The notes under the pieces: model-generated
What the model saw: the letters and a program-made list of their open reading frames with translations, nothing else
What the model was told of the DNA's origin: nothing
Databases searched by the model: none
From: Candidatus Nanosynbacter lyticus
GTDB lineage: Bacteria; Patescibacteriota; Saccharimonadia; Saccharimonadales; Saccharimonadaceae
DNA length: 32,000 nucleotides
Direction: 5' to 3'
Assembly (NCBI RefSeq): GCF_000803625.1
Contig: NZ_CP007496.1
Coordinates: 330,001-362,000, forward strand
Position numbers and translations under genes: made by a program
Part shown: positions 5,947 through 26,083 of the stretch, one piece after another
Position numbering within the stretch: position 1 is the first letter of the stretch
How the letters are laid out: the number at the start of each line of letters is the position of its first letter

Positions 5947-6441
5947 TTAGTAGGCGTGAAATGGTGGAGTATAATTCTGTAAAATTGTCCTCAAGCTCAC
6001 ACTATGCCGAAAGTTTATGTCGTCAATCTTATCCAGATCAACCCACTCCGGCATGCCGTTGGTGTAGGTTTTTTCGCTGTCGGTTATGTTGTCGTTATTG
6101 ATTTGCCCGTGCAGCTGGCTATAGGTAAAGTACAGCTAGATTGACTGGTTGGCTTGCGCCTCAGCGTTGCGTTTGAAGAAAGTAGTTGCTTGGTGAATGA
6201 TTTTATCCGGCATGATGGTTAGTCCAGTTTCTTTCTTAATTTCGCGGATAATTGATTCCTCAACCGTTTCGCCCTTCTCGACACCGCCGCCAATCAAGCT
6301 ATAACCGTCCCATTGCCGAGTTAAAAGAATCTTATTATCCTCAATAATAACTGCGTACACGCCGACGCGAATGTTTAGTTCGTCAACGGGAACGGTGTAT
6401 TGATTGCCGAAGACGTCTTTGCAGATGATGGTTTTAGTCAT
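5947..6441 (-). pseudogene. Nudix hydrolase interrupted by one in-frame TAG (6136-6138)
   Basis: ORF track 6136..6441 carries the Nudix box GGGVEKGETVEESIIREIKKETG and ends at TAG. The same frame then continues for 62 more codons (LYFTYSQLHGQINNDNITDSEKTYTNGMPEWVDLDKIDD...PPFHAY*) to a TAA at 5947-5949. The two parts together give a normal ~164-aa Nudix length. Confidence 0.7.
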
Positions 6442-7034
6442 GAGGTTATTCCCTTCAGATAATCCCTCAGCATCGCAAACCCATCAACCGTTTCAATTGC
6501 CGCCAAATATTCTTGCCACTCTTCATCATTCAATTCTGCCAAACTGCGGCCGGGAAATCTCGGATGCCCATAAATATATAGCAATTCCGTCCAGCCGTGC
6601 AGATTGTCGCCGCGCGGTTCATCGATAATAAAGCCCTCTTCGTCCACCACGAATATATGATCTTCCGCGCCGTCAAAATAGCCAACCGCAAAAGAAAATA
6701 TAGCCCTACGATCAGTTTCGCCTTGCATTAACTTGATTATGCCGGGATAGCTAAAACTATCCAGTAGCAATTTAACAAACGGCCCCGGAAAACCTTTCAG
6801 GGCCAGAATGAAAAAGCCACGATCATCAACGATTAGTCGCTTGTTTGGAAAAGCTTTCTTGGCTTGAGATAGTTTACTTTTGGCAATTGTTTGAATATCC
6901 AGCCCTCGCCCCTCGTCAAAATCATAGTCGAGCTGCCGTAAATCAACACCGAGTGGCTGGAGGAGCTTCTGGAGGCTGGCGAACTTTTTGTGATTGGAAG
7001 TTACAAAATAAATTAGACTATTCCTGTGCTTCAT
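6438..7034 (-). CDS. Ham1/ITPase-family (RdgB-like) nucleoside-triphosphate pyrophosphatase, divergent
   Basis: IYFVTSNHKKFASL matches the ATGNxxK motif position and LIVDDRGFFILALKGFPGPF matches the DDSGLxVxALxGxPG motif position. Its stop overlaps the Nudix start in an ATGA arrangement. Confidence 0.7.
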   Translation of the reverse strand: MKHRNSLIYFVTSNHKKFASLQKLLQPLGVDLRQLDYDFDEGRGLDIQTIAKSKLSQAKKAFPNKRLIVDDRGFFILALKGFPGPFVKLLLDSFSYPGIIKLMQGETDRRAIFSFAVGYFDGAEDHIFVVDEEGFIIDEPRGDNLHGWTELLYIYGHPRFPGRSLAELNDEEWQEYLAAIETVDGFAMLRDYLKGITS

Positions 7035-7049
7035 ATTGATAAGTATACG

Positions 7050-7625
7050 TTAACTAACGCCCTTTCGCAGATTTCTAATGCTCGTATCATAAGGGGTCTT
7101 CCATAATTCACCATCAATGTTCAGATTTTTCAGGAAACTATACATTTGTTGTTGAATATTGTCGGCATTTGCGTCGTCCTCAGCCAAAACCTCCAGCTCG
7201 ATAAACAACCCCAGCCCAGCAACTTCATCGACACAAATCGTATAGTCCTCAGTTTTCGATTCAAGGCGGACTTTATCAACCGTGACAACCTCTTGCCAAC
7301 CCAGCACTGTAAGCATTTGGCGTGCCATGTCGCCACTATCAACTGCAAACTCATATTCATCAGATACTAATTTCGCCTGCCTTTCGATTTTTAGCGTCAT
7401 AAAGCTCCGCTGCAACTCACCGGTTTTTGGGTCGAGGACGTCGCGTATTCGCATAATCTTTGAGCCAGGAATAATTGGAGCGTCAACCTGTTCGGGTAAT
7501 AGAAAAACCGTATCGATTTGGTGTTTGATTGAGATGGGCACGACAAACTGATTTTCTAGGACCGCAATGAGCTTGTCGCGAGTCATGTTGGCTGATAGCT
7601 TGAATTTGGATTCGATTTCAATCAT
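7050..7625 (-). CDS. CYTH-domain protein (triphosphate tunnel metalloenzyme / class IV adenylate cyclase-like)
   Basis: It has the N-terminal ExExK signature (MIEIESKF), MRIRD, and a C-terminal VDEVAGLGLFIELEV segment. These are typical of CyaB/ThTPase-type CYTH proteins. Confidence 0.8.
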   Translation of the reverse strand: MIEIESKFKLSANMTRDKLIAVLENQFVVPISIKHQIDTVFLLPEQVDAPIIPGSKIMRIRDVLDPKTGELQRSFMTLKIERQAKLVSDEYEFAVDSGDMARQMLTVLGWQEVVTVDKVRLESKTEDYTICVDEVAGLGLFIELEVLAEDDANADNIQQQMYSFLKNLNIDGELWKTPYDTSIRNLRKGVS

Positions 7626-12752: not shown

Positions 12753-14999
12753 CTATTTAACTTTAAAAAATTTCAATCTTAAAGCATTACCCAAAACAGA
12801 TACTGAACTAAATGACATTGCAAAAGCCGCTATCATCGGATCCAATTTTGGTCCATTGAAAAATGCATAAAATATTCCAGCGGCAAATGGTATTCCAAGT
12901 ACGTTATAAAAGAATGCCCAAAATAGATTTTCCTTTATATTTGTGATTGTTGCTTTACTTAATGCTATTGAACCCGCAACATCTCTCAAATCGTTTCTAA
13001 TTAAGACGATATCAGCGGATTCTATAGCAACATCCGTTCCATTTCCTATCGCAATTCCAACGTTTGCTTGAGCAAGTGCTGGTGAATCGTTAATTCCGTC
13101 TCCAACCATTGCAACAAATTCATCTCTTTCCTGAAGTTCCTTTACTTTTTGAGATTTCTGATAAGGCAGCACTTCTGAAATTACATCATCTATTCCCACT
13201 TGTTTTGCGATAAATTTGGCAATTTTTTCGTTATCTCCAGTTAGCATTACTGTCTTGATTCTCATTTTTTTCAGTTTTTCTATAGCTTCCTTGCTTGTTT
13301 CCTTGATAACGTCTGCAACTGCAACAAGTCCCGCCAATTCGTTATCAATCGAAATGTACATTGGCGTTTTTCCTTCATTCAACAAAATATCATAATCTTT
13401 TTGAGAAATTTCTACATTGATTTTTCGATTTTCCATCAATTTTCTATTTCCAATTTGAACTTCCTTGCCTTCAAATGCTGCACGAATACCGTAACCTGGC
13501 ATTGCCCTAAATTTTTCATACGGCTTAATTTCAATATTTTTCTCTTTTGCTTTGTTTACGATTGCTTCTGCCAATGGATGCTCTGAATCATTTTCCACAC
13601 TTGCAGCAATTTTTAACAATTCATTTTCATTATATTTCCCATAAGCAATCAAATTAGTAAGTATAGGCTTTCCTTTCGTAATCGTACCAGTCTTGTCAAA
13701 TACAACTGTTTTTATTTTGTATGCTGTTTCAAGAGCTTCCCCGCTTTTTATAAGAATACCGTTTTCAGCCCCTTTTCCAGTTCCAACCATTATTGATGTA
13801 GGTGTTGCAAGTCCCAATGCACACGGACACGCAATTACAAGTACAGCGATGAAAAACGACAATGCAGTAACCAATCCACTTCCACTTAGAAACCAAGCAA
13901 TTCCTGCAATTATCGCAATCCCAATAACAATCGGCACAAAATATGCCGACACAATGTCTGCCATTCTAGAGATAGGAGCCTTTGACCCCTGTGCCTCCTC
14001 AACCAGCTTTATAATTTGTGACAAAACTGTATTTTTACCAATTTCAGTCGCCTCAAATCTGATACTTCCATTTTTATTTATACTTCCGCCAACAACCTTA
14101 TCTCCAACTTTTTTGCTTACTGGCAAACTTTCTCCTGTCAACATTGACTCATCAACAGAAGTCGCCCCTTCCACAATTCTTCCATCCACCGCAATTTTTT
14201 CTCCCGGCTTCACAATAACAATATCTCCAACTTTCAAGTTTTCAATCAGAACTTCCTTTTCCGCTCCATTTTCAATAATTTTAGCCTTTTTAGGTTGAAG
14301 TCCGATAAGTTTTTTTATTGCCGATGAAGTTTGACCTTTTGTTTTTGCCTCCAGCAGTTTTCCAAACAAGATTAACGTAATAATTGCACCAGCCGACTCA
14401 TAATATAAATCCATATGTGCTTCAGGGTCTACAATTACAATTCCAAAAGTTGCGTAAATTCCATAGAGTACCGCCGCCGTTGACCCAATAGCAATTAATG
14501 AATCCATTGTTGGAGATTTTCTTACTAAATTTTTAAATCCATGTGAAAAAAAATCTCTCCCAGCATAAATAATAGGCAAAGTCAACACAAACTGTGCCAA
14601 CGCAAAATTAAGCGGATTTACCTTAGGATTCAAAAATTCAGGAAGTACTGCCCCAAGCATATGCCCCATCGAAATATACAAAAGTGGAACAACAAAAATA
14701 ACTGCTAAAATTAATCGATTTTTCAAACTTATTATTTTTTCTTGATAAAGTTCCACCTTTTTATCTTCTGTCATATCCTCAGCCAGTCCATACCCAGCCG
14801 ACTCCACTATTTCCCTAATTTTATCAAAATTGTACTTCTTCTCATCATATTCAATATTCAATTTTTCAGTTGCAAAATTAACTGAAGCGTTAATATCATT
14901 ATTTTTATTAAGTGCCTTTTCCACAGCATTGGCACAAGATGCACAGCTCATTCCGGTTACTGTATAGTTTTTTTCTGCCATAATCTTTTCTTCCTTCAT
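12753..14999 (-). CDS. copA: Copper-translocating P1B-type ATPase
   Basis: An N-terminal heavy-metal-binding GMSCASCA (CxxC) motif is present. The translation also contains the CPC transmembrane motif ([11 protein letters not shown]), the DKTGT phosphorylation site, TGES, HP (SEHPLA) and [12 protein letters not shown]. The start may be the second ATG at 14981 (MAEKNYTV), which has an aagga Shine-Dalgarno sequence. Spot counts give roughly 25-30% GC. Confidence 0.92.
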
Positions 15000-15014
15000 T
15001 TAGTACACCATATC

Positions 15015-15482
15015 TTAAATATGCTTATGTCCGCTATGTTCGCAATTACACTGCCCCTCCACACAATCACACGAAACTTCTCCCATAGCCGTCTTCCTCT
15101 TTTCCTCAACAGCCTTTAAAATCAGATCCAAGTCGTCAAAACTCAGTTCACTGTTCTCAATAACTTTCCCTATCATTTCTCCAACTTTCGTTTTACAAAT
15201 TTTATCAAAAGTTCCTAATATATAACTGTTAGCAACTTCCTTTTCTGTAAAATCTGTCGAATAAATATACTTGTTCCCAATTTCCTTCTTTTTCAAAATA
15301 TTCTTTTTCAGCAGCCGATTCAACAGCGCCTTTATTGTAGCCTGTTTCCAGTTCATTTTCTCACAAAGCACCTCTGTCACAAACTTGCTCGTAACTTCGC
15401 TATTTGCCCACACAACTCGCATTACTTCCCATTCTGCATCGGTTATATGCTGTTTTTTATCGATTCTGCAATTTTCTTTCAC
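15015..15482 (-). CDS. copY: CopY/TcrY-type copper-responsive repressor (BlaI/MecI winged-helix family)
   Basis: The N-terminal winged helix ITDAEWEVMRVVWANSEVTSKFV...WKQATIKALLNRLLKK is BlaI-like. The C-terminal CDCVEGQCNC matches the CxCx4CxC metal-binding motif of CopY. It uses a GTG start with an aaggagg Shine-Dalgarno sequence 8 nt upstream. Confidence 0.85.
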   Translation of the reverse strand: MKENCRIDKKQHITDAEWEVMRVVWANSEVTSKFVTEVLCEKMNWKQATIKALLNRLLKKNILKKKEIGNKYIYSTDFTEKEVANSYILGTFDKICKTKVGEMIGKVIENSELSFDDLDLILKAVEEKRKTAMGEVSCDCVEGQCNCEHSGHKHI

Positions 15483-18942: not shown

Positions 18943-19293
18943 CTAGAACTCCAATCCTTCTTGGCGCGCAGCATCAGCCAATGCTTTCAAGCGACCAGCG
19001 TACTGGCGGCCGTTGCGGTCAAAGACCACTGCGCTAATTTTACTTTTCTTTGCTTTCTTGGCAATTTCGGTACCGATGGCAGCGCATTTTTCGCTCATCG
19101 TACCTTTTGCTTTGGTGCCAACGGTGGTTGCGGCAGCCAATGTCTTGCCTGCGACGTCGTCGATCAGCTGAGCGCTAACATGCAGGTTGCTGATGGTGAC
19201 CGTCAGGCGTGGGCGCTCTGCAGTGCCTGAAACCTTGGCGCGAACGCGGTTTTTGCGAAGAGCGCGGTTGAGTAATTTCTTATTTTCAGCCAT
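18943..19293 (-). CDS. rplR: 50S ribosomal protein L18
   Basis: The translation runs RKNRVRAKVSGTAERPRLTVTISNLHVSAQLIDD...FDRNGRQYAGRLKALADAARQEGLEF. Confidence 0.95.
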   Translation of the reverse strand: MAENKKLLNRALRKNRVRAKVSGTAERPRLTVTISNLHVSAQLIDDVAGKTLAAATTVGTKAKGTMSEKCAAIGTEIAKKAKKSKISAVVFDRNGRQYAGRLKALADAARQEGLEF

Positions 19294-19295
19294 GA

Positions 19296-19835
19296 TTACT
19301 TACCTGTCTTTCCTGCTTTACGCAAAATTTGCTCGTCAGCGTACTTGATACCCTTGCCCTTGTATGGCTCAGGTTTCTTCAGCGCGCGAATTTCCGCAGC
19401 GACTTGGCCGACTTGCTGTTTATTGATACCACTGACGATGATAGTCATCTTTTCATTGGTAACGGTGATGCCCTCTGGGGCTTTGTATTTGACTGGGTGT
19501 GAAAACCCGAGCGCCATTTCCAGCTCGTTGTTGCTGGAGCTCACGCGGAAACCGACACCATTGACCTCGAGACGCTTCTCGTAGCCTTTGGTGACGCCGA
19601 TTACCATGTTGTTGATCAGCGCGCGCATTAGACCGTGCTGGGCGCGAGCAGTTTTGGACTCATCCTTCGGATGAACCGTGGCGTGTCCGTCTTCGACTTT
19701 CACCTCAACTGCTGGCGTGATGAATTGTGTCAATTCACCTTTCGGGCCCTTTACGACCACGTCACCAGAGTCAACCGTGATTGTCACACCGGCCGGAATA
19801 ACCACCGGCAGTTTTCCGATTCGACTCAGACTCAT
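19296..19835 (-). CDS. rplF: 50S ribosomal protein L6
   Basis: The translation runs MSLSRIGKLPVVIPAGVTITVD...LMRALINNMVIGVTKGYEKRLEVNGVGFR...EPYKGKGIKY. Confidence 0.95.
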   Translation of the reverse strand: MSLSRIGKLPVVIPAGVTITVDSGDVVVKGPKGELTQFITPAVEVKVEDGHATVHPKDESKTARAQHGLMRALINNMVIGVTKGYEKRLEVNGVGFRVSSSNNELEMALGFSHPVKYKAPEGITVTNEKMTIIVSGINKQQVGQVAAEIRALKKPEPYKGKGIKYADEQILRKAGKTGK

Positions 19836-19871
19836 TACTCACCTTTCGTGTGATTTGATATTAACTTCGGT

Positions 19872-19880
19872 ATTTTAGCA
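19872..19880 (-). promoter_or_regulatory. TG-extended -10 box (TGCTAAAAT on the minus strand) upstream of rplF
   Basis: It is the reverse complement of attttagca. It is followed by a 36-nt leader carrying an aaaggtgag Shine-Dalgarno sequence before the rplF ATG at 19835. Confidence 0.4.
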
Positions 19881-19927
19881 TAGATTAGGGGTAAAATGCA
19901 AGCTTGGCGTGGCGGATTATCATAAAT

Positions 19928-19938
19928 TGCTATATACT
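19928..19938 (+). promoter_or_regulatory. TG-extended -10 box (TGCTATATACT) upstream of the second CYTH gene
   Basis: It lies on the plus strand, divergent from the rplF promoter. A ggagg Shine-Dalgarno sequence at 19960-19964 precedes the GTG start at 19973. Confidence 0.4.
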
Positions 19939-19972
19939 TTTAGTATTGCGTAAGTGAGTTGGAGGTTCCTGC

Positions 19973-20569
19973 GTGGCAGAACGATATGAAATAGAGCGTA
20001 AACGTAAATTTTTGGGTGATTTGGAGGAGTTTATTGCACGACTGAGTTCTCAGGGATTTTTTCTGTCTAGCGAAACTACTGAAATTGACACTTATTATTC
20101 TCGACCGGATGTTGATTTTATGCAGACGGTTGAGTGTTTACGGGTTCGACAGCGTGATGATTTTGCTGAGATAACCTATAAGCCACCGACCAATCAGCGC
20201 ACGCACACTGAGGATGGGGTTATCGTCAAGCCAGAAACTAATCTGCCGGTCAATCCAGAGAATACGGCCGTCGCTAAGCAGCTGCTAGCAAATCTTGGTA
20301 TGGTGAAATTGGTCGAGGTCAATAAGTTTAGACGGATATTTAAGTGCGATGATGAGCCGGGGCTAACGATTGCTATTGATGAGATTAGCGGTGTGGGTGT
20401 TTTCATAGAAACAGAAATCATCAGCGAGGATAAAAAGTCGGCTTTGCGGCGAATCGAGGATGTTGAAGCACGGATAGGAGTTCAGGAGTTTGAAATCATC
20501 ACTCGACCGTATCGTGATATTTGTATGTATGCACAATTTACTGAAAGAGATAAGGTGGTAACAAAATGA
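19973..20569 (+). CDS. CYTH-domain protein (second, divergent paralogue)
   Basis: It has the ExExK signature (YEIERKRKF), LRVRQ and IDEISGVGVFIETEI. It uses a GTG start. Its stop overlaps the next start in an ATGA arrangement. Confidence 0.8.
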   Translation: MAERYEIERKRKFLGDLEEFIARLSSQGFFLSSETTEIDTYYSRPDVDFMQTVECLRVRQRDDFAEITYKPPTNQRTHTEDGVIVKPETNLPVNPENTAVAKQLLANLGMVKLVEVNKFRRIFKCDDEPGLTIAIDEISGVGVFIETEIISEDKKSALRRIEDVEARIGVQEFEIITRPYRDICMYAQFTERDKVVTK

Positions 20570-21225
20570 AAACAGCTATACTATTTGCCACCAGAAACCC
20601 AGGCAAGTACGAAGAATTCGTTGCAACGTTTCGTAACTTCGACCCGCAAATATCAATTATTTCGCTAGCAGACTTGAGCTATCAAATCCCCGATTGCGTA
20701 GAAACGGGTGTGACTTTTGAACAAAACGCCCTCTTAAAGGCACGACATACGAGGCGTTATTTACGCGGGAATGATAAAAACTTAATAATTATTGCCGATG
20801 ACTCAGGTATGGAGATTGAAGCATTAAACGGCGAGCCTGGCGTGTTTACAAGACGCTGGGATGGTCACGAGATGAGTGATCAGGAAATCGTAGATTACTG
20901 CTTGAAGAAGCTTGAAAATAAGACAAATAGGCGAGCACAATATCAGACGTGTCTTGCAGTAAACTTCCCTGATGGTCGCGAGAAGGTGATTTTTGGAGAA
21001 AATTCTGGCGTTATTTTAACTGAGTCACGGGAGGAGTCGCGACTCAAAGGTATGCCATTTCGGGAGTTATTTTTCGTACCCGAGCTTGATATGATGTTTC
21101 ATGAAGTGCGCGAGCTGCCGAAGTCCATGCGTAGTGAGTATCAGCTTGGGCATGAAATTGCAATCGAAAAATGCGCCACTCTTATAGAAGAGTATGCGAT
21201 GTTGCGTTCTTCGACTGTTGTTTAG
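20566..21225 (+). CDS. Ham1/RdgB-family dITP/XTP pyrophosphatase (second paralogue)
   Basis: ILFATRNPGKYEEF matches the ATxNxxKxxE motif. IIADDSGMEIEALNGEPGVFTRRW matches the DDSGLxVxALNGxPGVYSAR motif. Confidence 0.85.
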   Translation: MKTAILFATRNPGKYEEFVATFRNFDPQISIISLADLSYQIPDCVETGVTFEQNALLKARHTRRYLRGNDKNLIIIADDSGMEIEALNGEPGVFTRRWDGHEMSDQEIVDYCLKKLENKTNRRAQYQTCLAVNFPDGREKVIFGENSGVILTESREESRLKGMPFRELFFVPELDMMFHEVRELPKSMRSEYQLGHEIAIEKCATLIEEYAMLRSSTVV

Positions 21226-21238
21226 CGATAGGGATGTC

Positions 21239-21535
21239 TCACTGATTGGTATCGCAGATAAGGACACTGAGCTTATTAATAAGCGTCGAATCGAGCTGGT
21301 TAGGGGCAATATCCTGCGGGTGAAGATAAGCTAGTTCCTCGGCTTCCTCACTCACCCGTGGATTACCTAGGAGTGTCACCTCAAAAGCAATGATAAGCAC
21401 CGGGTCATCGAACTTGTTATGCCACGTTGGAATAATCAAGGGATTTTCTGTAGAGACTTTGACATCTGCTTCTAATTCTTCCAGAAACTCTCGTTTCAAC
21501 GCTTACGTAACATCCTCACCATGTTCCAGACCGCC
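21239..21535 (-). pseudogene. Nudix hydrolase remnant (Nudix box plus C-terminal part) with in-frame stops
   Basis: The minus-strand frame reads ...IILLTS*GGLEHGEDVT*ALKREFLEELEADVKVSTENPL...ICDTNQ*. GGxxxGE...REFLEELE is a Nudix box, broken by a TAA at 21503-21505 and preceded by a TAG at 21536-21538. The ORF track sees only the TTG-initiated tail at 21239..21499. Confidence 0.6.
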
Positions 21536-21764
21536 CTATGATGTCAAGAGGATGATTCTATTTAGCATTGCAATACACCTCCATCAAGAAAGGAATTCGT
21601 GTTTTTCTATTCCGTCTTTTCCTCAATGCTTTTCTAGAATAAACTCTAGCAATACCTAAATCGTTACAAATAGCAGATTCTAGGTATTTTTTCTTATAAC
21701 GTTACCATAACCAATACCTATAGGCTGTTCTAAAAGTTGCATAAAAGTCTCCTTTACACCCTTC

Positions 21765-24008
21765 TTATTCGAATTCAATTTCTTCATTTAGACTATTAAA
21801 TAGTTCAACTTGTGCATCTATTTGAAGCCTATTAACAAGCCATCCTCGTAATTCTGCTTGTTGAATAAAATCTTCGATACGATTCTCTCCATTCAATTCC
21901 TTTAAAGTGACAACAACACCGAATCGAACTCCTTGCCCATCTCTAGTTTTTAGCCGTTCAATTGTTTTTATACTCATCCCCCACTGAGGATTAGACTGAT
22001 TTAAAATTGGTTTAACTCGCTTTCGGGCAGTGAATGTCTCTCCTATATGCTTAACATTATCCCATTTTCTAAAAACATTTCGAGCTGCGTTTTCCTTCAC
22101 ATAACCTGGAGTATCTTCCGTATACTGATTATCTTTATTGATTGATTCAATGCCGTCTAGCTTTAGTCTACCAAAGGTAATTTGCATCTCTGTATTTGTA
22201 TAGTCTACTCCCTGATTTCTTGAGCAATTCGGAGAATAACACATTGTTGCTTTAGCAACATATGGATAATTTCCGTTTGATATCGGCACTGGAAAATCAT
22301 AGTTATATGTGTCATATGCTTTAGAAATATCCGAGACGATAAACTTGATTTCATCGTCAGGAGTAGATAAAATATCCTCCATCTTTATCGGAACTATACC
22401 ATTACCAATTAAAGATAAATCAGCAAATGTTTTTTTATTATTCCATGGTATTGCTGAATCAATTAACAAAGCCTTTGCCTCCTCTCGATTAAGTCCCATA
22501 ACATTTATAAGATAAGCCATTTTTCTTGCGATAAACGGTGCTGCAAAACTTGTGCCTGCTACTCGACCTAAACCCAGTGGTTCACATACATTTATAAAAT
22601 CACCATTTCCACCGCCATAATATGAAACATCTGGCTTAACAAAGAATGATAAAACAACACCCTCTCGTGAATATGAAACTACTTGGTCGTTAAAATCAAC
22701 AGAATTTACAATTACAGAATTAAGCGAATCTGCGGGAGCACCTATTCTTTTGCGTTTTCCGTTTGTGGTGGTAGCATTTGTCCCTGCTATGATAAAAATC
22801 ACATCATTCTCAAATTGAATTTCATCTAATAACGCTCCCTCGACAGAAATAAAATTTTCTCTTATTTCATCATTAGATCCTAAAGAAAGATTCCAAACTT
22901 TAATATCAGAATTCTGGGAAATAATCTCTCTAATCTGTTTTATGATTGTAAATGAATTAAATCCACTTTGCAGAGACACGCCAAAATGTCTCACCCTAAA
23001 ATGTCCACAACCATCATCTAAATTTGGATTCAAACTAGCTCCATCAACTATTAGAGAAGTAACTGCCGTTCCATGTTTATAGTCTTGACTACCCTTTCTT
23101 ATTTCATTTGAAACCATGTCATGATACTCAACCCAGTCGTTAAAGTAAACTCTCTCATCGAATAAGGTATCAATAACACCAATAATTGGTTCATTCATTG
23201 GGAATGGAAGATTCGTTTGGAAATTATTATTATCTAAATAAAAATCATCTAGAGATAATTTAGAGAAATCCTCAACAATCATGGAAACAAGATATGGAGC
23301 TTTTGATAATAGCAATTCAATATTTTTTTCATCAAGCAATACGGTTGTTTGATTCATAACATTGGCTTCTGAAACATCAACATTGATTTTCTTAAGTACT
23401 TTTAAAATATCTGTTTGAACATCATAGAATGTAACAATAGAATTAGTTACATCTGAAATTTTAGCGTACTCAACGCCAAATTTCTCAACAAAGCAAGAAT
23501 CTCTCAAATATTGCTGAAACTTAGATTTTGAAATACCATATTCCGAAAATTTTATGGAAGCAAATGTTGATGACTCAGAGAACATCTCACTTGTTATCTC
23601 TCCATCAAAATGTTTCTCAAAAACTTCAATTATCTTACTCAAAACTATAATTGTTTTACTAAGTACATCTCCAGAGATATAGTGAGTAATAATATGCTTT
23701 TTCTTCTCACCATCAAATTTTGCTCCCACAATGGTATCATTAGGGACTGGATTCTCTCTTCCTACATTGAAGAAGCCATTAATACGGTTACTTTTAGCAA
23801 CAATTCGATTATAGTATACACTTATCAAAACACCATCAATGATGCTATCTTTCTCCCAATATTTTTTTACTTTTTCTAAGGAAGAATAAAGACGTTTCAA
23901 ATGTTCCAGTGTAATTACCGTATTTTTTGGTACGGTAATTGGTCCCATACCATTATTTCTCGATTTTTGTGTAAAACTTTTACCACGTAATGTCAATAAT
24001 GTATTCAT
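21765..24008 (-). CDS. S8 (subtilisin-family) serine peptidase with a ~270-aa unknown N-terminal region and a ~200-aa C-terminal region; IetS-like
   Basis: The catalytic motifs are in order: GVIDT (Asp), HGTAVTSLIVDG (His), NLSLG (oxyanion Asn) and GTSFAAPFIARKMA (Ser). The start lies 1 nt after the stop of the upstream ATPase (TGAcATG). The gene is AT-rich. Confidence 0.9.
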   Translation of the reverse strand: MNTLLTLRGKSFTQKSRNNGMGPITVPKNTVITLEHLKRLYSSLEKVKKYWEKDSIIDGVLISVYYNRIVAKSNRINGFFNVGRENPVPNDTIVGAKFDGEKKKHIITHYISGDVLSKTIIVLSKIIEVFEKHFDGEITSEMFSESSTFASIKFSEYGISKSKFQQYLRDSCFVEKFGVEYAKISDVTNSIVTFYDVQTDILKVLKKINVDVSEANVMNQTTVLLDEKNIELLLSKAPYLVSMIVEDFSKLSLDDFYLDNNNFQTNLPFPMNEPIIGVIDTLFDERVYFNDWVEYHDMVSNEIRKGSQDYKHGTAVTSLIVDGASLNPNLDDGCGHFRVRHFGVSLQSGFNSFTIIKQIREIISQNSDIKVWNLSLGSNDEIRENFISVEGALLDEIQFENDVIFIIAGTNATTTNGKRKRIGAPADSLNSVIVNSVDFNDQVVSYSREGVVLSFFVKPDVSYYGGGNGDFINVCEPLGLGRVAGTSFAAPFIARKMAYLINVMGLNREEAKALLIDSAIPWNNKKTFADLSLIGNGIVPIKMEDILSTPDDEIKFIVSDISKAYDTYNYDFPVPISNGNYPYVAKATMCYSPNCSRNQGVDYTNTEMQITFGRLKLDGIESINKDNQYTEDTPGYVKENAARNVFRKWDNVKHIGETFTARKRVKPILNQSNPQWGMSIKTIERLKTRDGQGVRFGVVVTLKELNGENRIEDFIQQAELRGWLVNRLQIDAQVELFNSLNEEIEFE

Positions 24009-24009
24009 G

Positions 24010-25044
24010 TCAATCCTCGCTTAATTCTCGTGAGACACTGCTTTTAGAAATACCTGTTAAAATCTCGATTTCTCGAACAGTAAAACCCAGCTTTGATAAT
24101 TTAGAAATAGATAAATTCCTTCCATTATGCAAACTCCTTAATAAACGTTTTTGATAGTCATGTGGATCTGTCGGATCACTAAATGCCAGTGAAGTTCTTA
24201 TTAAATTCCTCAAGTCACCAGGATTCGGTATAGTCCCACAACTATAAATAATTTTCTTAAATAACTTCAGATCTCTTCCTACATTTTTGAATTGTTTCAA
24301 TAACTCCGTCAAAATAACCACAGCAACTTCAACCTTGTCATCATCAGAATAGCGATCGAAATCAATTATAGCGTCGAATCTTCTAGTAACTGCTTTATCA
24401 AGATTTTCAAAAAGATTCGTTGTGGCAATGAGTATAATCTCTGGAGATAATCTATCTAACTCTTTTAAAAAAGCAGAAGTTACTCTCCCCATTTCTCTTA
24501 AATCATTCTGATTAACCCTATCCAATACGATAGAATCAATTTCATCAAAAAGGATGATATAATTTTGCTTAAAAGGCAAATGATTGATTTCATTAAAAAG
24601 AGCTGCTAAATTTTTAACTGTCTGTCCTAGTTTACTATCAACTAGGTGACTAAAATCTACCACAAGTAATTCTTTGTCAATAAGTCTAGTCACCTGCTTC
24701 ACACTTTCAGTTTTTCCAGTACCTGGTACCCCTACAAATAAGAATTTATTTATTCCAATGTGATGATTAACAGCGTTTATTATTCCTTTTAAGTCATTCA
24801 TAATGGGAAGTGGCAACGGAAGAGGGTTAATATCTAATTTAACAGGAGTCAAATACTCACTTATATTCTCTATTTGTGGTACTAACCTATCACTTTGAGA
24901 TATCATCCCCATAATATATTGTGCTAATTGTGTATCTCCATGTTTATCAAAATTTCGAGCAATAGCTATGCTTTGATTTCTGAATTCTGTCTCTTTGCTC
25001 TCATAATGATACTTTATTAAATCAAGAACATCTGATTTTTTCAT
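24010..25044 (-). CDS. AAA+ ATPase with a C-terminal helix-turn-helix; IetA-like
   Basis: It has Walker A GVPGTGKT, Walker B IILFDEID, sensor-1 ATTN and an arginine-finger region VTRRFD. The C-terminal LGFTVREIEILTGISKSSVSRELS looks like an HTH. A gaaggagg Shine-Dalgarno sequence precedes the start. Confidence 0.9.
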   Translation of the reverse strand: MKKSDVLDLIKYHYESKETEFRNQSIAIARNFDKHGDTQLAQYIMGMISQSDRLVPQIENISEYLTPVKLDINPLPLPLPIMNDLKGIINAVNHHIGINKFLFVGVPGTGKTESVKQVTRLIDKELLVVDFSHLVDSKLGQTVKNLAALFNEINHLPFKQNYIILFDEIDSIVLDRVNQNDLREMGRVTSAFLKELDRLSPEIILIATTNLFENLDKAVTRRFDAIIDFDRYSDDDKVEVAVVILTELLKQFKNVGRDLKLFKKIIYSCGTIPNPGDLRNLIRTSLAFSDPTDPHDYQKRLLRSLHNGRNLSISKLSKLGFTVREIEILTGISKSSVSRELSED

Positions 25045-25068
25045 GACTCAATCCTCCTTCTATAAAAA

Positions 25069-25110
25069 ATGATACTACGCCTTTGGGACAGAGTCAATTT
25101 TTTTGGGACA
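25069..25110 (-). promoter_or_regulatory. Sigma-70-type promoter of the ATPase/protease cassette with two TGTCCCAAA direct repeats (candidate operator)
   Basis: On the minus strand, TTGACT (plus-strand 25092-25097) is separated by 17 nt from TATCAT (25069-25074). TTTGGGACA occurs at 25082-25090, inside the spacer, and at 25102-25110, just upstream of the -35. The two copies are 20 bp apart. Confidence 0.5.
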
Positions 25111-25150
25111 AATTATAAATAAAACCTAGAAAAATATTATTCTTTAATCT

Positions 25151-25276
25151 CTCTATCCCACCAGAAAGACCCCATGAATCACTTCTCTCTTAGACGAACA
25201 ATAGCTTGCCTGAAGAATCAGACACCAATCCTTTGACGGTTACGCGATAAGCAGCAGGAATATGTTTAAGTTTCAT
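25151..25276 (-). pseudogene. N-terminal Nudix-like fragment with an in-frame TAA
   Basis: The minus-strand frame from the ATG at 25276 reads MKLKHIPAAYRVTVKGLVSDSSGKLLFV*ERSDSWGLSGGIE. This is the typical Nudix N-terminal strand pattern up to the first half of the Nudix box. Similarity stops at ~25151, where the AT-rich cassette begins. The TAA is at 25190-25192. Confidence 0.5.
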
Positions 25277-25282
25277 ATCGTA

Positions 25283-25293
25283 ATTGTAGCACA
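25283..25293 (-). promoter_or_regulatory. TG-extended -10 box (TGTGCTACAAT on the minus strand) 6 nt upstream of the Nudix-fragment ATG
   Basis: It is the reverse complement of attgtagcaca. It has the same motif and spacing as the other putative leaderless promoters in this window. Confidence 0.4.
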
Positions 25294-25342
25294 TATGTCG
25301 CTACTCTCGATGAGACGTTAGGCTTGGTCTACTTATCGCACA

Positions 25343-25370
25343 ATAAAAAGCACTCGGGAATCCCGAGCGC
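25343..25370 (-). terminator. Intrinsic terminator immediately after rpsH
   Basis: The minus-strand RNA gcgcucggg-auu-cccgagugc forms a 9-bp stem with one G-U pair. It is followed by uuuuuauug. It lies 22 nt downstream of the rpsH stop. Confidence 0.75.
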
Positions 25371-25391
25371 TTTTCTACTAGCAGTTTTAGA

Positions 25392-25793
25392 TTAGTACAC
25401 CTTCAACAGCAACTCACCACCAAGTTTAGCCTTGGCTGCTTCAGCGCCAGTCATGACACCTTTTGAGGTTGAGATGAGTACTAGACCGCGGCCGCTTTTC
25501 ACCTTTGGAATCTCGCTAGCGCCGACGTAGACACGACGACCTGGCTTGGATACACGGGTGATCTCGTTGATGGTGCTGTTAGTACCCTCTTCGTTGATGG
25601 TCACGACCAACACACCACGAGGCTTAGCGTCCTCTAGTTTAACATCTGCAAGGTAGCCGTTTTTGACTAATTGTTCAGCGATGACTTTTTTCATCTTGCT
25701 GGACGGAACACGAACTTCCGTCTTGCCAACCAGTTTCGCATTGCGAATGCGCGTCAGAAGGTCGGCGATTGGGTCTGTAGTTTGCATAGACAT
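25392..25793 (-). CDS. rpsH: 30S ribosomal protein S8
   Basis: MSMQTTDPIADLLTRIRNAKLVGKTEVRVPSSKMK is canonical uS8. The start at 25793 is preferred over the ORF-track 25820, which overlaps rpsN. Confidence 0.93.
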   Translation of the reverse strand: MSMQTTDPIADLLTRIRNAKLVGKTEVRVPSSKMKKVIAEQLVKNGYLADVKLEDAKPRGVLVVTINEEGTNSTINEITRVSKPGRRVYVGASEIPKVKSGRGLVLISTSKGVMTGAEAAKAKLGGELLLKVY

Positions 25794-25813
25794 TGTCGAA
25801 TCTCCTTTCCTTC

Positions 25814-26083
25814 TTACCAACTACTCTTTGTTATACCTGGGATTTCGCCCTTGGCTGCTTTTTCGCGGAAATTGATGCGGCTCAGGCCGAACTGGCGCAT
25901 GTAGCCACGTGGACGGCCGGAAATGCTGTCGCGGTTCTTGTGCCGAGTTGGGCTCGAGTTGCGAGGCAGTTTCTGTAGACCGTCGAGGTCGCCAAGTTCT
26001 TTGAGCTCAGCGCGCTTCGCAGCGTATTTTGCGATCATCTTCAGACGCTTTTTGTCGCGAGCGACCATTGATTTCTTAGCCAT
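25814..26083 (-). CDS. rpsN: 30S ribosomal protein S14 (long, Cys-less form)
   Basis: The translation runs [28 protein letters not shown]...[31 protein letters not shown]. Confidence 0.95.

What the first reader, a model, noticed from the sequence alone, without database searches (positions are those of the whole stretch)
21765..25110. AT-rich AAA+ ATPase (with HTH) plus S8 subtilase two-gene cassette: an IetAS-like candidate defence module in a tiny CPR genome
Two tightly coupled genes (TGAcATG junction) have their own TTGACT-17-TATCAT promoter and a strong Shine-Dalgarno sequence. Spot counts of 60-nt lines give about 30% GC for them against about 50-57% in the ribosomal genes on either side, so they look horizontally acquired.

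Gene 1 is a 344-aa AAA+ ATPase. It has Walker A GVPGTGKT, Walker B IILFDEID, ATTN and RRFD, and ends in a helix-turn-helix-like segment (LGFTVREIEILTGISKSSVSRELS).

Gene 2 is a 747-aa protein with an intact subtilase Asp/His/Asn/Ser set (GVIDT, HGTAVTS, NLSLG, GTSFAAP). This core is embedded between a ~270-aa N-terminal and a ~200-aa C-terminal region that I cannot assign.

An ATPase plus S8 protease pair is the architecture reported as the anti-phage system IetAS (Gao et al. 2020, as I recall it). I cannot verify sequence homology here. The HTH tail, the unassigned protease domains and the location in the middle of a ribosomal superoperon of an episymbiont-type genome may be new variations.
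Basis: partly seen in the sequence, partly recalled or inferred. Interest (0 to 1): 0.8.

Follow-up and report, generated by a model that had tools for sequence, protein, structure and literature searches.

The report
Streptococcus-derived IetAS defence cassette in Saccharibacteria
A tiny mouth-dwelling parasitic bacterium (Saccharibacteria) carries an intact two-gene toxin-antitoxin/anti-phage module of the known IetAS type, copied almost unchanged from oral Streptococcus and inserted into a small housekeeping gene in the middle of its ribosomal-protein operon; the module is ordinary, but its origin and insertion site are informative.

Summary
Window 25044-24010(-) encodes a 344-aa AAA+ ATPase and 24008-21765(-) a 747-aa S8 subtilase. 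They are 1 nt apart, have their own promoter and Shine-Dalgarno sequence, and have 33% GC against 51% in the ribosomal genes.

Both proteins hit PADLOC IetA and IetS models best (E 9e-36 and 9e-64). They fall far below NCBIfam's equivalog cut-offs, so this is a distant IetAS subfamily. The helix-turn-helix (HTH) tail and the N- and C-terminal protease domains are conserved across that subfamily. They are not new variations.

3.4 kb of the cassette is 95.6% identical in DNA to Streptococcus chromosomes, and its IetS nests inside the Streptococcus radiation. It splits a native Nudix gene at the PGG|G codons, with a 2-bp GG shared at both junctions. In Streptococcus the joined ends lie about 390 bp downstream of three serine-recombinase genes.

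The rpsH-rplF junction is hypervariable in Nanosynbacter, from 14 bp to 8.5 kb. Only 3 of 52 related species carry the cassette. Their copies are far more alike (dS 0.03-0.09) than their ribosomal genes (dS 0.3-1.1).

A conserved TTGTCCC direct repeat over the -35 box suggests autoregulation through the IetA HTH.

Verdict: a new member of a known kind, moderately interesting.

The parts
25345..25370 (-). GC-rich hairpin plus T-run directly after the rpsH stop. It is terminator-like and separates rpsH from the inserted region.
   Evidence: Sequence read. The scan hit on the opposite strand is at 25353-25367.
25158..25276 (-). N-terminal remnant of the native Nudix gene (MKLKHIPAAYRVTVKGL...WGLSGG). 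It carries an in-frame TAA at 25192-25190 and has its own TG-extended -10 promoter-like site at 25310-25283.
   Evidence: Translation and comparison with the intact Nudix of relatives (...FVQERSDSWDLPGGGLEHGE...). Promoter scan.
25157..25159 (-). Left junction (attL-like): native TCTGGT-GG followed by cassette GATAGAGAG. The GG is the shared core.
   Evidence: Empty sites in 14 relatives read CCTGGC-GG-CGGTCTGGAA.
25082..25110 (-). Two direct TGTCCCAAA repeats, 20 nt apart, bracketing the -35 box. Candidate operator for the IetA HTH.
   Evidence: These are the only two occurrences in the 32-kb window, against 0.21 expected. The TTGTCCC x2 repeat at 20-21 nt spacing is conserved upstream of IetA in Streptococcus, Neisseria, Leuconostoc and Staphylococcus loci whose surrounding sequence is otherwise unrelated.
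25053..25097 (-). Cassette promoter (TTGACT 25097-25092, 17-nt spacer, TATCAT 25074-25069) and Shine-Dalgarno GAAGGAGG (25060-25053).
   Evidence: The same elements occur in the Streptococcus copy.
24010..25044 (-). ietA: 344-aa classic-clade AAA+ ATPase. N-terminal 3-helix bundle (aa 1-48), AAA+ core (about aa 60-305), C-terminal 3-helix HTH (aa 313-343).
   Evidence: Pfam AAA 1.2e-24. PADLOC IetA 9.2e-36 over aa 99-341. AlphaFold2 pLDDT 93. Foldseek hits to Rpt, Rix7, spastin, Msp1 and Trip13. Family alignment.
21765..24008 (-). ietS: 747-aa subtilase with no evident signal peptide. N-terminal alpha/beta region (aa 1-246), S8 core (aa 273-537; D280, H312, N373, S487), C-terminal beta-sandwich (about aa 550-730).
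   Evidence: Pfam S8 3.2e-31. PADLOC IetS 8.8e-64. Invariant catalytic residues. AlphaFold2 pLDDT 75.5. Foldseek best hits are KP-43, SubHal, S1P and PCSK9.
21680..21742 (-). 20-codon remnant of a third small gene. It is an 89-aa membrane ORF in Streptococcus, with about 200 bp deleted here.
   Evidence: The same deletion is present in all Saccharibacteria copies.
21536..21679 (-). Right arm of the insert, ending ...CATCCTCTTGACATCATAG. The last ~57 bp align (82% in blastn) with the sequence upstream of ietA in Streptococcus, and weaker similarity by eye extends this to ~85 bp. The origin of the first ~60 bp is unknown.
   Evidence: A 21-mer search found it only in Saccharibacteria contigs.
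21239..21535 (-). Right junction (GG core at 21535-21534) and C-terminal remnant of the native Nudix gene (GGLEHGEDVT*ALKREFLEELE...). It carries an in-frame TAA at 21505-21503.
19973..21225 (+). CYTH (class IV adenylate cyclase/triphosphatase-like) and Ham1/RdgB genes. These are native hotspot residents, not part of the cassette.
   Evidence: Pfam and NCBIfam. Present next to the Nudix gene in many relatives that lack IetAS.

Best explanation
**What it is.** This is an intact IetAS-family toxin-antitoxin/anti-phage cassette. It reached a Nanosynbacter-type Saccharibacterium very recently from oral Streptococcus. It sits inside a native Nudix gene in a hypervariable cargo site between rpsH and rplF.

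**How it most likely works.**
1. Shown: the two genes form one translationally coupled unit, with a Firmicutes-style sigma-70 promoter and Shine-Dalgarno sequence that came with the cassette.
2. Inferred from a phylogenetic footprint and the predicted structure: the C-terminal HTH of IetA binds the two TTGTCCC repeats that bracket the -35 box and autoregulates the operon, as type II antitoxins do.
3. Taken from published work on other IetAS and IetAS-like pairs, not tested here: the intracellular subtilase IetS is the toxin, and the AAA+ ATPase IetA keeps it in check. Phage infection, or loss of the cassette, frees the protease. The result is growth arrest or abortive infection and stable retention of the locus.
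4. Inferred for the insertion step: a conservative site-specific recombination with a GG crossover dinucleotide at the Nudix-box codons PGG|G, of the serine-recombinase type. The recombinase is no longer in the insert.
For: **Family.** PADLOC's best hits are IetA (9.2e-36) and IetS (8.8e-64). NCBIfam's best hits are IteA and IteS. Gene order, sizes and tight coupling are the same in Streptococcus, Neisseria, Leuconostoc and Staphylococcus loci.

**Intactness and selection.** Both ORFs are full length. dN/dS is 0.13-0.16 for IetS and 0.25-0.41 for IetA.

**Origin.**
- 95.6% nucleotide identity over 3427 bp to Streptococcus contigs that carry mutM, coaE, rnr, smpB and comEC.
- Cassette GC is 0.328 in both hosts.
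- Saccharibacteria IetS nests within Streptococcus diversity.

**Insertion.**
- Intact relatives read ...WDLPGGGLEHGE...; the window has WGLSGG | cassette | GGLEHGE.
- GG is shared at both junctions and nothing else is duplicated.
- The joined ends occur as a contiguous sequence about 390 bp after three large serine-recombinase genes in Streptococcus.
- A Streptococcus Nudix gene is cut at the same codon (...WEFPGGG|) by a homologous left end.

**Recent spread.** Cassette dS is 0.03-0.09 between carriers whose ribosomal genes differ by dS 0.3-1.1. The closest relatives lack the cassette.

**Operator.**. The HTH appears in the alignment and in the AlphaFold2 model.

**Toxin-antitoxin roles.** PMC13069673, PMC5006074 and bioRxiv 10.1101/2021.01.21.427616.
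Against: - Scores are far below the NCBIfam equivalog cut-offs (98.8 against 510 bits; 151.6 against 900 bits).
- Identity to PGAP-named IteS and to Agrobacterium homologues is only about 24%. Function is therefore extrapolated across a large distance.
- No anti-phage test exists for this subfamily in the papers I could read, and the IetAS anti-phage mechanism is stated to be unknown.
- No recombinase lies in or next to the insert.
- In the closest Streptococcus locus the attP-like sequence is intact although the element looks integrated. Its right boundary with a Nudix fragment lies about 8 codons from the GG site. The integration model is therefore incomplete.
- High identity between carriers extends a little into the Nudix C-terminal remnant (92-95%). 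This fits homologous-recombination spread as well as repeated site-specific insertion.
- HTH-operator binding is untested.
- One carrier (L036) has a C-terminally truncated IetS.
Confidence: 0.75

Rival explanations
1. The cassette is only a selfish addiction module, left over from a mobile element. It persists because losing it kills the cell, and it gives this host no phage protection.
For: IetAS was first described as a plasmid-stabilising toxin-antitoxin pair. SGI1 and Mycoplasma homologues behave as toxin-antitoxin pairs. Homologues sit on ICEs, plasmids and next to recombinases. The rest of the hotspot is not a defence island, with no other PADLOC hit. The IetS copy in L036 is decaying.
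Against: E. coli IetAS systems do give phage protection, in part synergistically. Purifying selection acts on IetS in Saccharibacteria (dN/dS 0.13-0.16). The cassette has spread among divergent Nanosynbacter species. In the S. mitis/pneumoniae-type locus it sits directly beside an AbiH gene. The two roles are not mutually exclusive.
Confidence: 0.25
2. The cassette did not enter by site-specific recombination. Streptococcus DNA was taken up and inserted by illegitimate or homology-facilitated recombination at the Nudix box. It then moved between Nanosynbacter species by homologous recombination through the flanking Nudix sequence.
For: There is no recombinase in the insert. All Saccharibacteria copies share identical junctions and the same internal 200-bp deletion, as expected from one founding event. 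Elevated identity extends into the Nudix C-terminal remnant. The Streptococcus cassettes are themselves flanked by Nudix fragments that could supply microhomology.
Against: The junctions are exact, with only the GG shared and no loss of target bases. The joined insert ends exist as a contiguous sequence next to serine-recombinase genes in Streptococcus. An unrelated Streptococcus Nudix gene is cut at the same codon by the homologous left end. The insert is circularly permuted relative to the Streptococcus arrangement, which simple co-linear recombination does not explain.
Confidence: 0.35
3. The pair is a vertically inherited housekeeping protease-chaperone pair of Saccharibacteria.
For: It is co-oriented with the ribosomal operon and intact.
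Against: It is absent from 49 of 52 related species loci, including the closest relatives. GC is 33% against 51%. It is 95.6% identical in DNA to Streptococcus. It disrupts a native gene.
Confidence: 0.01
4. It is an assembly chimera, or Streptococcus contamination of the Saccharibacteria assembly.
For: Identity to Streptococcus DNA is very high.
Against: The same junctions to rpsH, Nudix, Ham1 and rplF occur in several sources. These are a complete 705-kb genome, independent contigs from NCBI, ENA and Logan, three other species genomes and six further metagenome contigs. The Saccharibacteria copies form their own subclade and share a private deletion.
Confidence: 0.01

Closest known systems
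IetAS anti-phage/toxin-antitoxin system (pTiC58 IetA/IetS, Yamamoto 2009; anti-phage activity, Gao 2020; both as cited in PMC13069673)
   Same: A two-gene operon with the AAA+ ATPase first and an S8 subtilase of about 745 aa second. The best PADLOC and NCBIfam matches for both proteins are IetA/IetS. It is carried on mobile elements.
   Different: It is a distant subfamily. Identity to the PGAP-named IteS and to an Agrobacterium plasmid S8 homologue is about 24%. Scores are about 5-6 times below the NCBIfam equivalog cut-offs. The IetA N-terminal ~98 aa are not covered by any IetA profile. Function is untested for this subfamily.
Streptococcus chromosomal AAA/S8 pairs (S. intermedius type, P0004; S. 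mitis/pneumoniae type, P0008 and P0014)
   Same: 96% and 86-88% amino-acid identity for IetS, and 95.6% and 85% DNA identity. The promoter, Shine-Dalgarno sequence and TTGTCCC repeats are the same, and both are associated with a split Nudix gene.
   Different: The Streptococcus copies retain neighbours that are missing here: three serine recombinases and an 89-aa membrane ORF in one type, or AbiH in the other. The Saccharibacteria insert is circularly permuted relative to the S. intermedius-type arrangement.
Mycoplasma mycoides AAA-ATPase/subtilisin-like pair (T133/A132) and SGI1 S026/S025 (sgiAT)
   Same: [quoted passage not shown] The Mycoplasma pair is a precedent in a minimal genome. A Mesomycoplasma hyorhinis homologue is 41% identical to this IetS.
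   Different: They come from different lineages and integration contexts. No link to ribosomal operons or Nudix genes is reported for them.
Large-serine-recombinase mobile elements (for example phage integrases and ccr-type cassettes; general knowledge)
   Same: Conservative insertion with a 2-bp crossover core and no longer target duplication. The attachment site lies in a conserved coding sequence, and the attP-like sequence lies close to recombinase genes in the donor.
   Different: No recombinase is present in the Saccharibacteria insert. The recombinase-site pairing is inferred, not demonstrated.

Membership tests
IetAS (PADLOC/DefenseFinder sense) | Adjacent, co-directional ietA (ATPase) and ietS (protease) genes | tested here: met
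   The genes are 1 nt apart on the same strand, ATPase first. The layout is the same in all homologous loci examined.
IetAS (PADLOC/DefenseFinder sense) | IetA matches the IetA profile HMMs | tested here: met
   PDLC02196 at 9.2e-36 over aa 99-341, matching profile positions 123-368 of 374. Three further IetA models score 1e-18 to 1e-26.
IetAS (PADLOC/DefenseFinder sense) | IetS matches the IetS profile HMMs | tested here: met
   PDLC02197 at 8.8e-64 over aa 233-735. PDLC02201 at 3.5e-46 over aa 35-616.
IetAS | Functional AAA+ motifs (Walker A and B, sensor 1, arginine finger) | tested here: met
   GVPGTGKT, ILFDEID, ATTN and TRRFD are present. G105, G110 and K111 are invariant, and D167 and D170 are conserved in at least 90% of 51 homologues.
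IetAS | Intact S8 catalytic residues (Asp/His/Ser plus the oxyanion Asn) | tested here: met
   D280, H312, N373 and S487 are invariant in 46 homologues. The fold matches subtilases.
NCBIfam IteA_antiphage / IteS_antiphage equivalogs (the experimentally anchored subfamily) | Score at or above the curated equivalog cut-off | tested here: not met
   IteA scores 98.8 bits against a cut-off of 510. IteS scores 151.6 bits against a cut-off of 900. Identity to a PGAP-named iteS is 23.6%.
IetAS | Protease is toxic and the ATPase neutralises it; the pair protects against phage | not testable with these tools
   Only literature on other members is available.
Serine-recombinase-integrated element | Conservative junctions with a 2-bp shared core and no longer target duplication | tested here: met
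   attB is CCTGGC-GG-CGGTCTGG, attL is TCTGGT-GG-GATAGAGAG and attR is CATCATAG-GG-CGGTCTGG.
Serine-recombinase-integrated element | A cognate recombinase gene within or beside the element | tested here: not met
   None lies in the insert, and none was seen among the Pfam-scanned or record-annotated genes of the window. Recombinases are present only beside the Streptococcus copy.

The most novel reading that the evidence does not exclude
The IetAS cassette may be a small mobile unit whose attachment site lies in the DNA that encodes the universally conserved Nudix-box glycines (PGG|G). This would let the same defence or addiction module insert into unrelated Nudix genes across phyla, here from Streptococcus into a CPR episymbiont. 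It would also let the module re-insert repeatedly among Nanosynbacter species within a cargo hotspot that splits the ribosomal-protein operon.
Probability: 0.35. Interest if true: 0.6.

Novelty: new member of a known kind. Interest (0 to 1): 0.42.

Why it matters
- Saccharibacteria have genomes of about 0.7 Mb. Their known antiviral repertoire is mostly CRISPR-Cas and restriction-modification (PMC13578794). An intact IetAS module under purifying selection adds an abortive-infection/toxin-antitoxin type system to that list.
- The near-identical Streptococcus copy dates the transfer as very recent. It also shows that these episymbionts take up genes from community members other than Schaalia odontolytica, the host of the cultivated strain TM7x.
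- The rpsH-rplF junction, and a second site between secY and infA, act as cargo hotspots inside the ribosomal superoperon. These are practical places to look for accessory genes in CPR genomes.
- The conserved TTGTCCC repeats together with the IetA HTH give a directly testable regulatory hypothesis for a defence family whose mechanism is still unknown.

Tried and rejected
- **New HTH tail or new protease domains:** rejected. Both are conserved across the subfamily.
- **Hotspot as a defence island:** rejected. Eight representative unannotated cargo proteins from relatives gave no credible PADLOC hit. The cargo is mostly nucleotide-sanitation enzymes, small membrane proteins, an ABC-F protein and hydrolases.
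- **Origin of the 145-bp right arm:** unresolved. A 21-mer scan of metagenomes returned only Saccharibacteria contigs with the same layout. A 27-mer scan of viral contigs returned nothing.
- **Phage vehicle:** not supported. Only distant relatives (43-65%) occur in IMG/VR, and there was no meaningful match in GenBank phages.
- **RNA elements:** no Rfam family in 19000-26000 and no tRNA in the hotspot.
- **Primary papers:** Gao 2020 and Yamamoto 2009 are not held. Their content is cited second-hand from PMC13069673.
- **Nudix N-terminal half in Streptococcus:** I looked for it upstream of the recombinases in the S. intermedius-type locus and did not find it within 10 kb.
- **TAA recoding:** rejected as the reason for the in-frame stops in the Nudix remnant. 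Relatives have CAA and GAA at those positions, and other carriers have different lesions, so this is pseudogene decay.


Full report
**1. Observation**

The window is part of CP040011.1 (GCA_005697395.1), a complete 705-kb genome. Its ribosomal proteins are 96-100% identical to those of Candidatus Nanosynbacter/Saccharibacteria genomes.

The two ORFs lie on the minus strand, in the same orientation as the S10-spc-alpha ribosomal genes. They are a 344-aa protein (25044-24010) and a 747-aa protein (24008-21765), joined as TGA-c-ATG. The TTGACT-17-TATCAT site is the best promoter-like match in the region, and GAAGGAGG precedes the start codon. GC is 0.328 in the cassette and 0.51 in the ribosomal block. 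D280, H312, N373 and S487 are invariant in 46 homologues.

**2. Family assignment**

- PADLOC gives IetA as the best family for gene 1 (9.2e-36, aa 99-341 against profile 123-368 of 374) and IetS for gene 2 (8.8e-64, aa 233-735). A second IetS model covers aa 35-616.
- NCBIfam's best hits are also IteA and IteS, but far below the equivalog cut-offs: 98.8 against 510 bits and 151.6 against 900 bits.
- A PGAP-named iteS on a plasmid is only 23.6% identical, and an Agrobacterium plasmid homologue 24%.

The pair therefore belongs to the IetAS family in the PADLOC sense, but to a distant, largely Firmicutes-centred subfamily. Its homologues of about 745 aa occur in Streptococcus, Enterococcus, Staphylococcus, Clostridium perfringens plasmids, Neisseria, Pasteurellaceae and Mesomycoplasma.

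**3. Domain anatomy**

*IetA.* AlphaFold2 with 51 homologues gives pLDDT 93. The model has an N-terminal three-helix bundle (aa 1-48), a disordered linker, an AAA+ core and a C-terminal three-helix HTH (aa 313-343). Foldseek places the core in the classic AAA clade, with Rpt subunits, Rix7/NVL, spastin, Msp1 and Trip13. The tail GFTxREIExLTxxSKSxxxRxL is conserved down to 26% identity. It is therefore a family feature, not a local novelty. The pore-loop position reads SK-L-G (family consensus Sx-L-G) and lacks the aromatic residue typical of processive unfoldases. That comes from the sequence and from my general knowledge of AAA proteins, and I give it little weight.

*IetS.* The model has pLDDT 75.5. 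It shows an N-terminal alpha/beta region (aa 1-246), the subtilase core and a C-terminal beta-sandwich. The best structural matches are subtilases with C-terminal beta domains: KP-43, SubHal, S1P and PCSK9. No solved structure of the family exists. The N-terminus (MNTLLTLRGKSFTQKSRNNG...) has no hydrophobic signal-like stretch, so the enzyme is probably intracellular (inference).

**4. Origin**

- The IetS search returned 96% identity to a Streptococcus intermedius protein, 82-88% to S. pneumoniae/mitis-type proteins, 75-79% to S. suis and S. halichoeri, and about 65% to Neisseria and Pasteurellaceae.
- The 96% copy lies in Streptococcus chromosomal contigs with mutM, coaE, rpmG, secG, rnr, smpB and comEA/EC.
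- Window 25141-21716 is 95.6% identical to them over 3427 bp.
- Synonymous divergence between window and Streptococcus is only 0.10-0.14.
- Cassette GC is identical in both hosts (0.328), so it has not been ameliorated.
- In a neighbour-joining tree the Saccharibacteria sequences form a small clade inside the Streptococcus radiation.

The direction of transfer was therefore Streptococcus to Saccharibacteria, and it was recent. The only cultivated Nanosynbacter discussed in the papers I read lives on Schaalia, not Streptococcus.

**5. Insertion site**

Upstream and downstream of the cassette lie the two halves of a native Nudix gene. Relatives have the intact sequence ...LLFVQERSDSWDLPGGGLEHGEDVTEALKREFLEELE.... 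The window has ...LLFV\*ERSDSWGLSGG | cassette | GGLEHGEDVT\*ALKREFLEELE.... At the DNA level:

| Site | Sequence |
|---|---|
| Empty site in relatives | CCTGGC-GG-CGGTCTGGAA |
| Left junction | TCTGGT-GG-GATAGAGAG |
| Right junction | CATCCTCTTGACATCATAG-GG-CGGTCTGG |

Only the GG is shared, and no target bases are lost. In the closest Streptococcus locus the two insert ends occur joined (CATCCTCTTGACATCATAG-GGG-GGATATAAAGG) about 390 bp after the last of three large serine-recombinase genes and about 150 bp before ietA. The Saccharibacteria insert is thus circularly permuted relative to that arrangement. In the S. mitis/pneumoniae-type loci a Streptococcus Nudix gene is truncated at the same codon (...MWE[FL]PGGG|KSVRENLI\*) by a homologous left end.

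Taken together, this points to conservative site-specific recombination at the Nudix-box glycine codons. A 2-bp core without further duplication is the serine-recombinase signature (general knowledge).

Several gaps remain:
- There is no recombinase in the insert.
- The first ~60 bp of the right arm have no identified source.
- In the S. intermedius-type locus the attP-like site is intact, while a Nudix C-terminal fragment abuts the cassette about 8 codons from the GG position.

A transformation-plus-recombination route is therefore kept as a serious rival for this step.

**6. The hotspot and spread within Saccharibacteria**

Among 52 species-level relatives with both flanking genes, the rpsH-rplF spacer ranges from 14 bp in distant Saccharibacteria to 8.5 kb. 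It holds a mosaic of about 48 ORF families. These include:
- a frequent small membrane protein just upstream of rplF (30 loci);
- Nudix, Ham1 and CYTH genes;
- a UDG-family glycosylase, alpha/beta hydrolases, a zeta toxin and a Mom-like protein;
- a ribosomal-protection-like ABC-F protein.

No other PADLOC defence family was found.

IetAS occurs only in the window genome and in L021, L042 and L036 (Ca. Minimicrobia vallesae). It always has the same junctions and the same 200-bp deletion of a small downstream ORF. Six further metagenome contigs show the same layout. Between these carriers the cassette has dS 0.03-0.09, while ribosomal genes have dS 0.3-1.1. The window's nearest relatives (L056 and L010, dS 0.1-0.3) lack it, and L056 has the intact Nudix gene. 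Identity drops from 96-100% in the cassette to 79-93% in the flanks, with a shoulder of 92-95% in the Nudix C-terminal remnant.

The cassette has therefore moved between already diverged Nanosynbacter species. It did so either by re-insertion at the same site or by recombination through the Nudix flanks.

IetS is under purifying selection (dN/dS 0.13-0.16). IetA gives 0.25-0.41, on few substitutions. The L036 copy has lost the IetS C-terminus. The Nudix remnants carry different inactivating lesions in different carriers, consistent with decay after disruption. A second CYTH-Ham1-Nudix trio elsewhere in the window (7625-6136) may make the loss tolerable.

**7. Regulation and mechanism**

TGTCCCAAA occurs exactly twice in the 32-kb window, against 0.21 expected. 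The two copies are 20 nt apart and bracket the -35 hexamer of the cassette promoter. The core TTGTCCC is found twice, at 20-21 nt spacing just upstream of the -10 box, in every IetAS locus of this subfamily that I examined. These come from Streptococcus (three types), Neisseria, Leuconostoc and Staphylococcus, and their surrounding sequence is otherwise unalignable. This phylogenetic footprint and the conserved HTH of IetA make autorepression by IetA the most economical reading (inference).

For the protein-level mechanism I rely on the literature:
- IetS is the toxin and IetA the antitoxin. Protease activity is needed for defence, ietA mutants could not be cloned, and the anti-phage mechanism is unknown (PMC13069673).
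- SGI1 S026/S025 is a functional toxin-antitoxin pair (PMC5006074).
- A Mycoplasma AAA/subtilisin pair is a functional toxin-antitoxin pair whose protease causes filamentation in E. coli.

My committed model is as follows. IetA represses the operon and restrains the intracellular protease. Infection, or loss of the cassette, frees IetS, and proteolysis then arrests the cell. I put about 0.55 on the mechanistic part and about 0.9 on the identity and origin parts.

**8. Comparison and verdict**

The cassette works like, and is a member of, the IetAS family as PADLOC defines it. It is not an equivalog of the experimentally anchored subfamily. Its architecture is standard for its own subfamily.

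What is new is the context:
- a near-identical Streptococcus donor;
- insertion at the Nudix-box codons;
- a cargo hotspot that splits the ribosomal operon;
- lateral spread among Nanosynbacter species;
- a candidate operator.

None of this changes what kind of system it is. I rate it a new member of a known kind, with moderate interest (0.42). The most novel reading still open is a Nudix-box-targeting mobile defence cassette able to cross phyla (p about 0.35).

Noticed in passing
window 19836-25391; relatives L007-L086: The rpsH-rplF junction is a hypervariable cargo site in Nanosynbacter-type Saccharibacteria. The spacer ranges from 14 bp to 8.5 kb and holds about 48 ORF families in mosaic combinations, whereas distant Saccharibacteria have the two genes nearly adjacent.
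   Followed up: yes
L028 10486-12096; also L034, L037, L062, L066, L072, L074: Several relatives carry a 536-aa ribosomal-protection-like ABC-F protein in the same hotspot (NCBIfam NF000355, 412 bits against a cut-off of 380). It often sits with an alpha/beta hydrolase and a UDG-family gene, in low-GC (0.34-0.36) inserts. It could be an antibiotic-resistance-type ABC-F placed inside the ribosomal operon.
   Followed up: no
window 12753-15482 (-): A second low-GC (0.36) island lies between secY and infA. It holds a CopY/TcrY-family repressor (above the equivalog cut-off) and a CopA-type P-type ATPase. It is present in 7 of 25 relatives, with CopA 97-98% identical even where SecY is only 81-82% identical, so it also appears laterally mobile. 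The best plasmid matches are only 64-70% in DNA, and no donor was identified.
   Followed up: partly
window 6136-7625 (-): A second CYTH-Ham1-Nudix gene trio, paralogous to the set at the hotspot. It may compensate for the disrupted Nudix gene. The Nudix ORF here is short (101 aa).
   Followed up: no
window 25192-25190 and 21505-21503 (-): There are in-frame TAA codons in both Nudix remnants where relatives have CAA and GAA. Other carriers have different lesions. I interpret this as pseudogene decay, not recoding.
   Followed up: yes
L087 12266-12535; window 21742-21680: In the S. intermedius-type locus an 89-aa predicted membrane ORF follows ietS. All Saccharibacteria copies retain only a 20-codon remnant after a 200-bp deletion. 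Whether it is an accessory component of the system is unknown.
   Followed up: partly
L036 11792-13960 (Ca. Minimicrobia vallesae NZ_CP076459.1): The IetS here is truncated or frameshifted near residue 722, and IetA has an altered N-terminus. The cassette may be decaying in this lineage.
   Followed up: partly
L061 3003-3854; L056 12382-13329: Other hotspot cargo in relatives includes a zeta-toxin family protein (Pfam 1.6e-34) with a small upstream ORF, and a Mom-family protein (Pfam 4.3e-09).
   Followed up: no
L111 4389-13654 (Streptococcus suis): The IetAS pair here is flanked by two copies of an HTH-UDP-glucose dehydrogenase gene and an IS66 TnpB, with no Nudix fragment. This is a different insertion route in S. 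suis.
   Followed up: no
L010-L012, L026, L040, L061 versus window (secY): SecY is only 81-82% identical to the window protein in L010, a relative whose ribosomal genes are 93-98% identical in DNA, and in five others that carry the same copYA island. It is 94-97% identical in relatives that are otherwise more distant. This suggests mosaic recombination around the secY-infA site.
   Followed up: no
NZ_LR214949.1 238614-240893 (Mesomycoplasma hyorhinis, listed in PLSDB): A full-length IetS homologue (41% identity) occurs in another minimal-genome bacterium. The record is an 844-kb chromosome filed among the plasmids.
   Followed up: no
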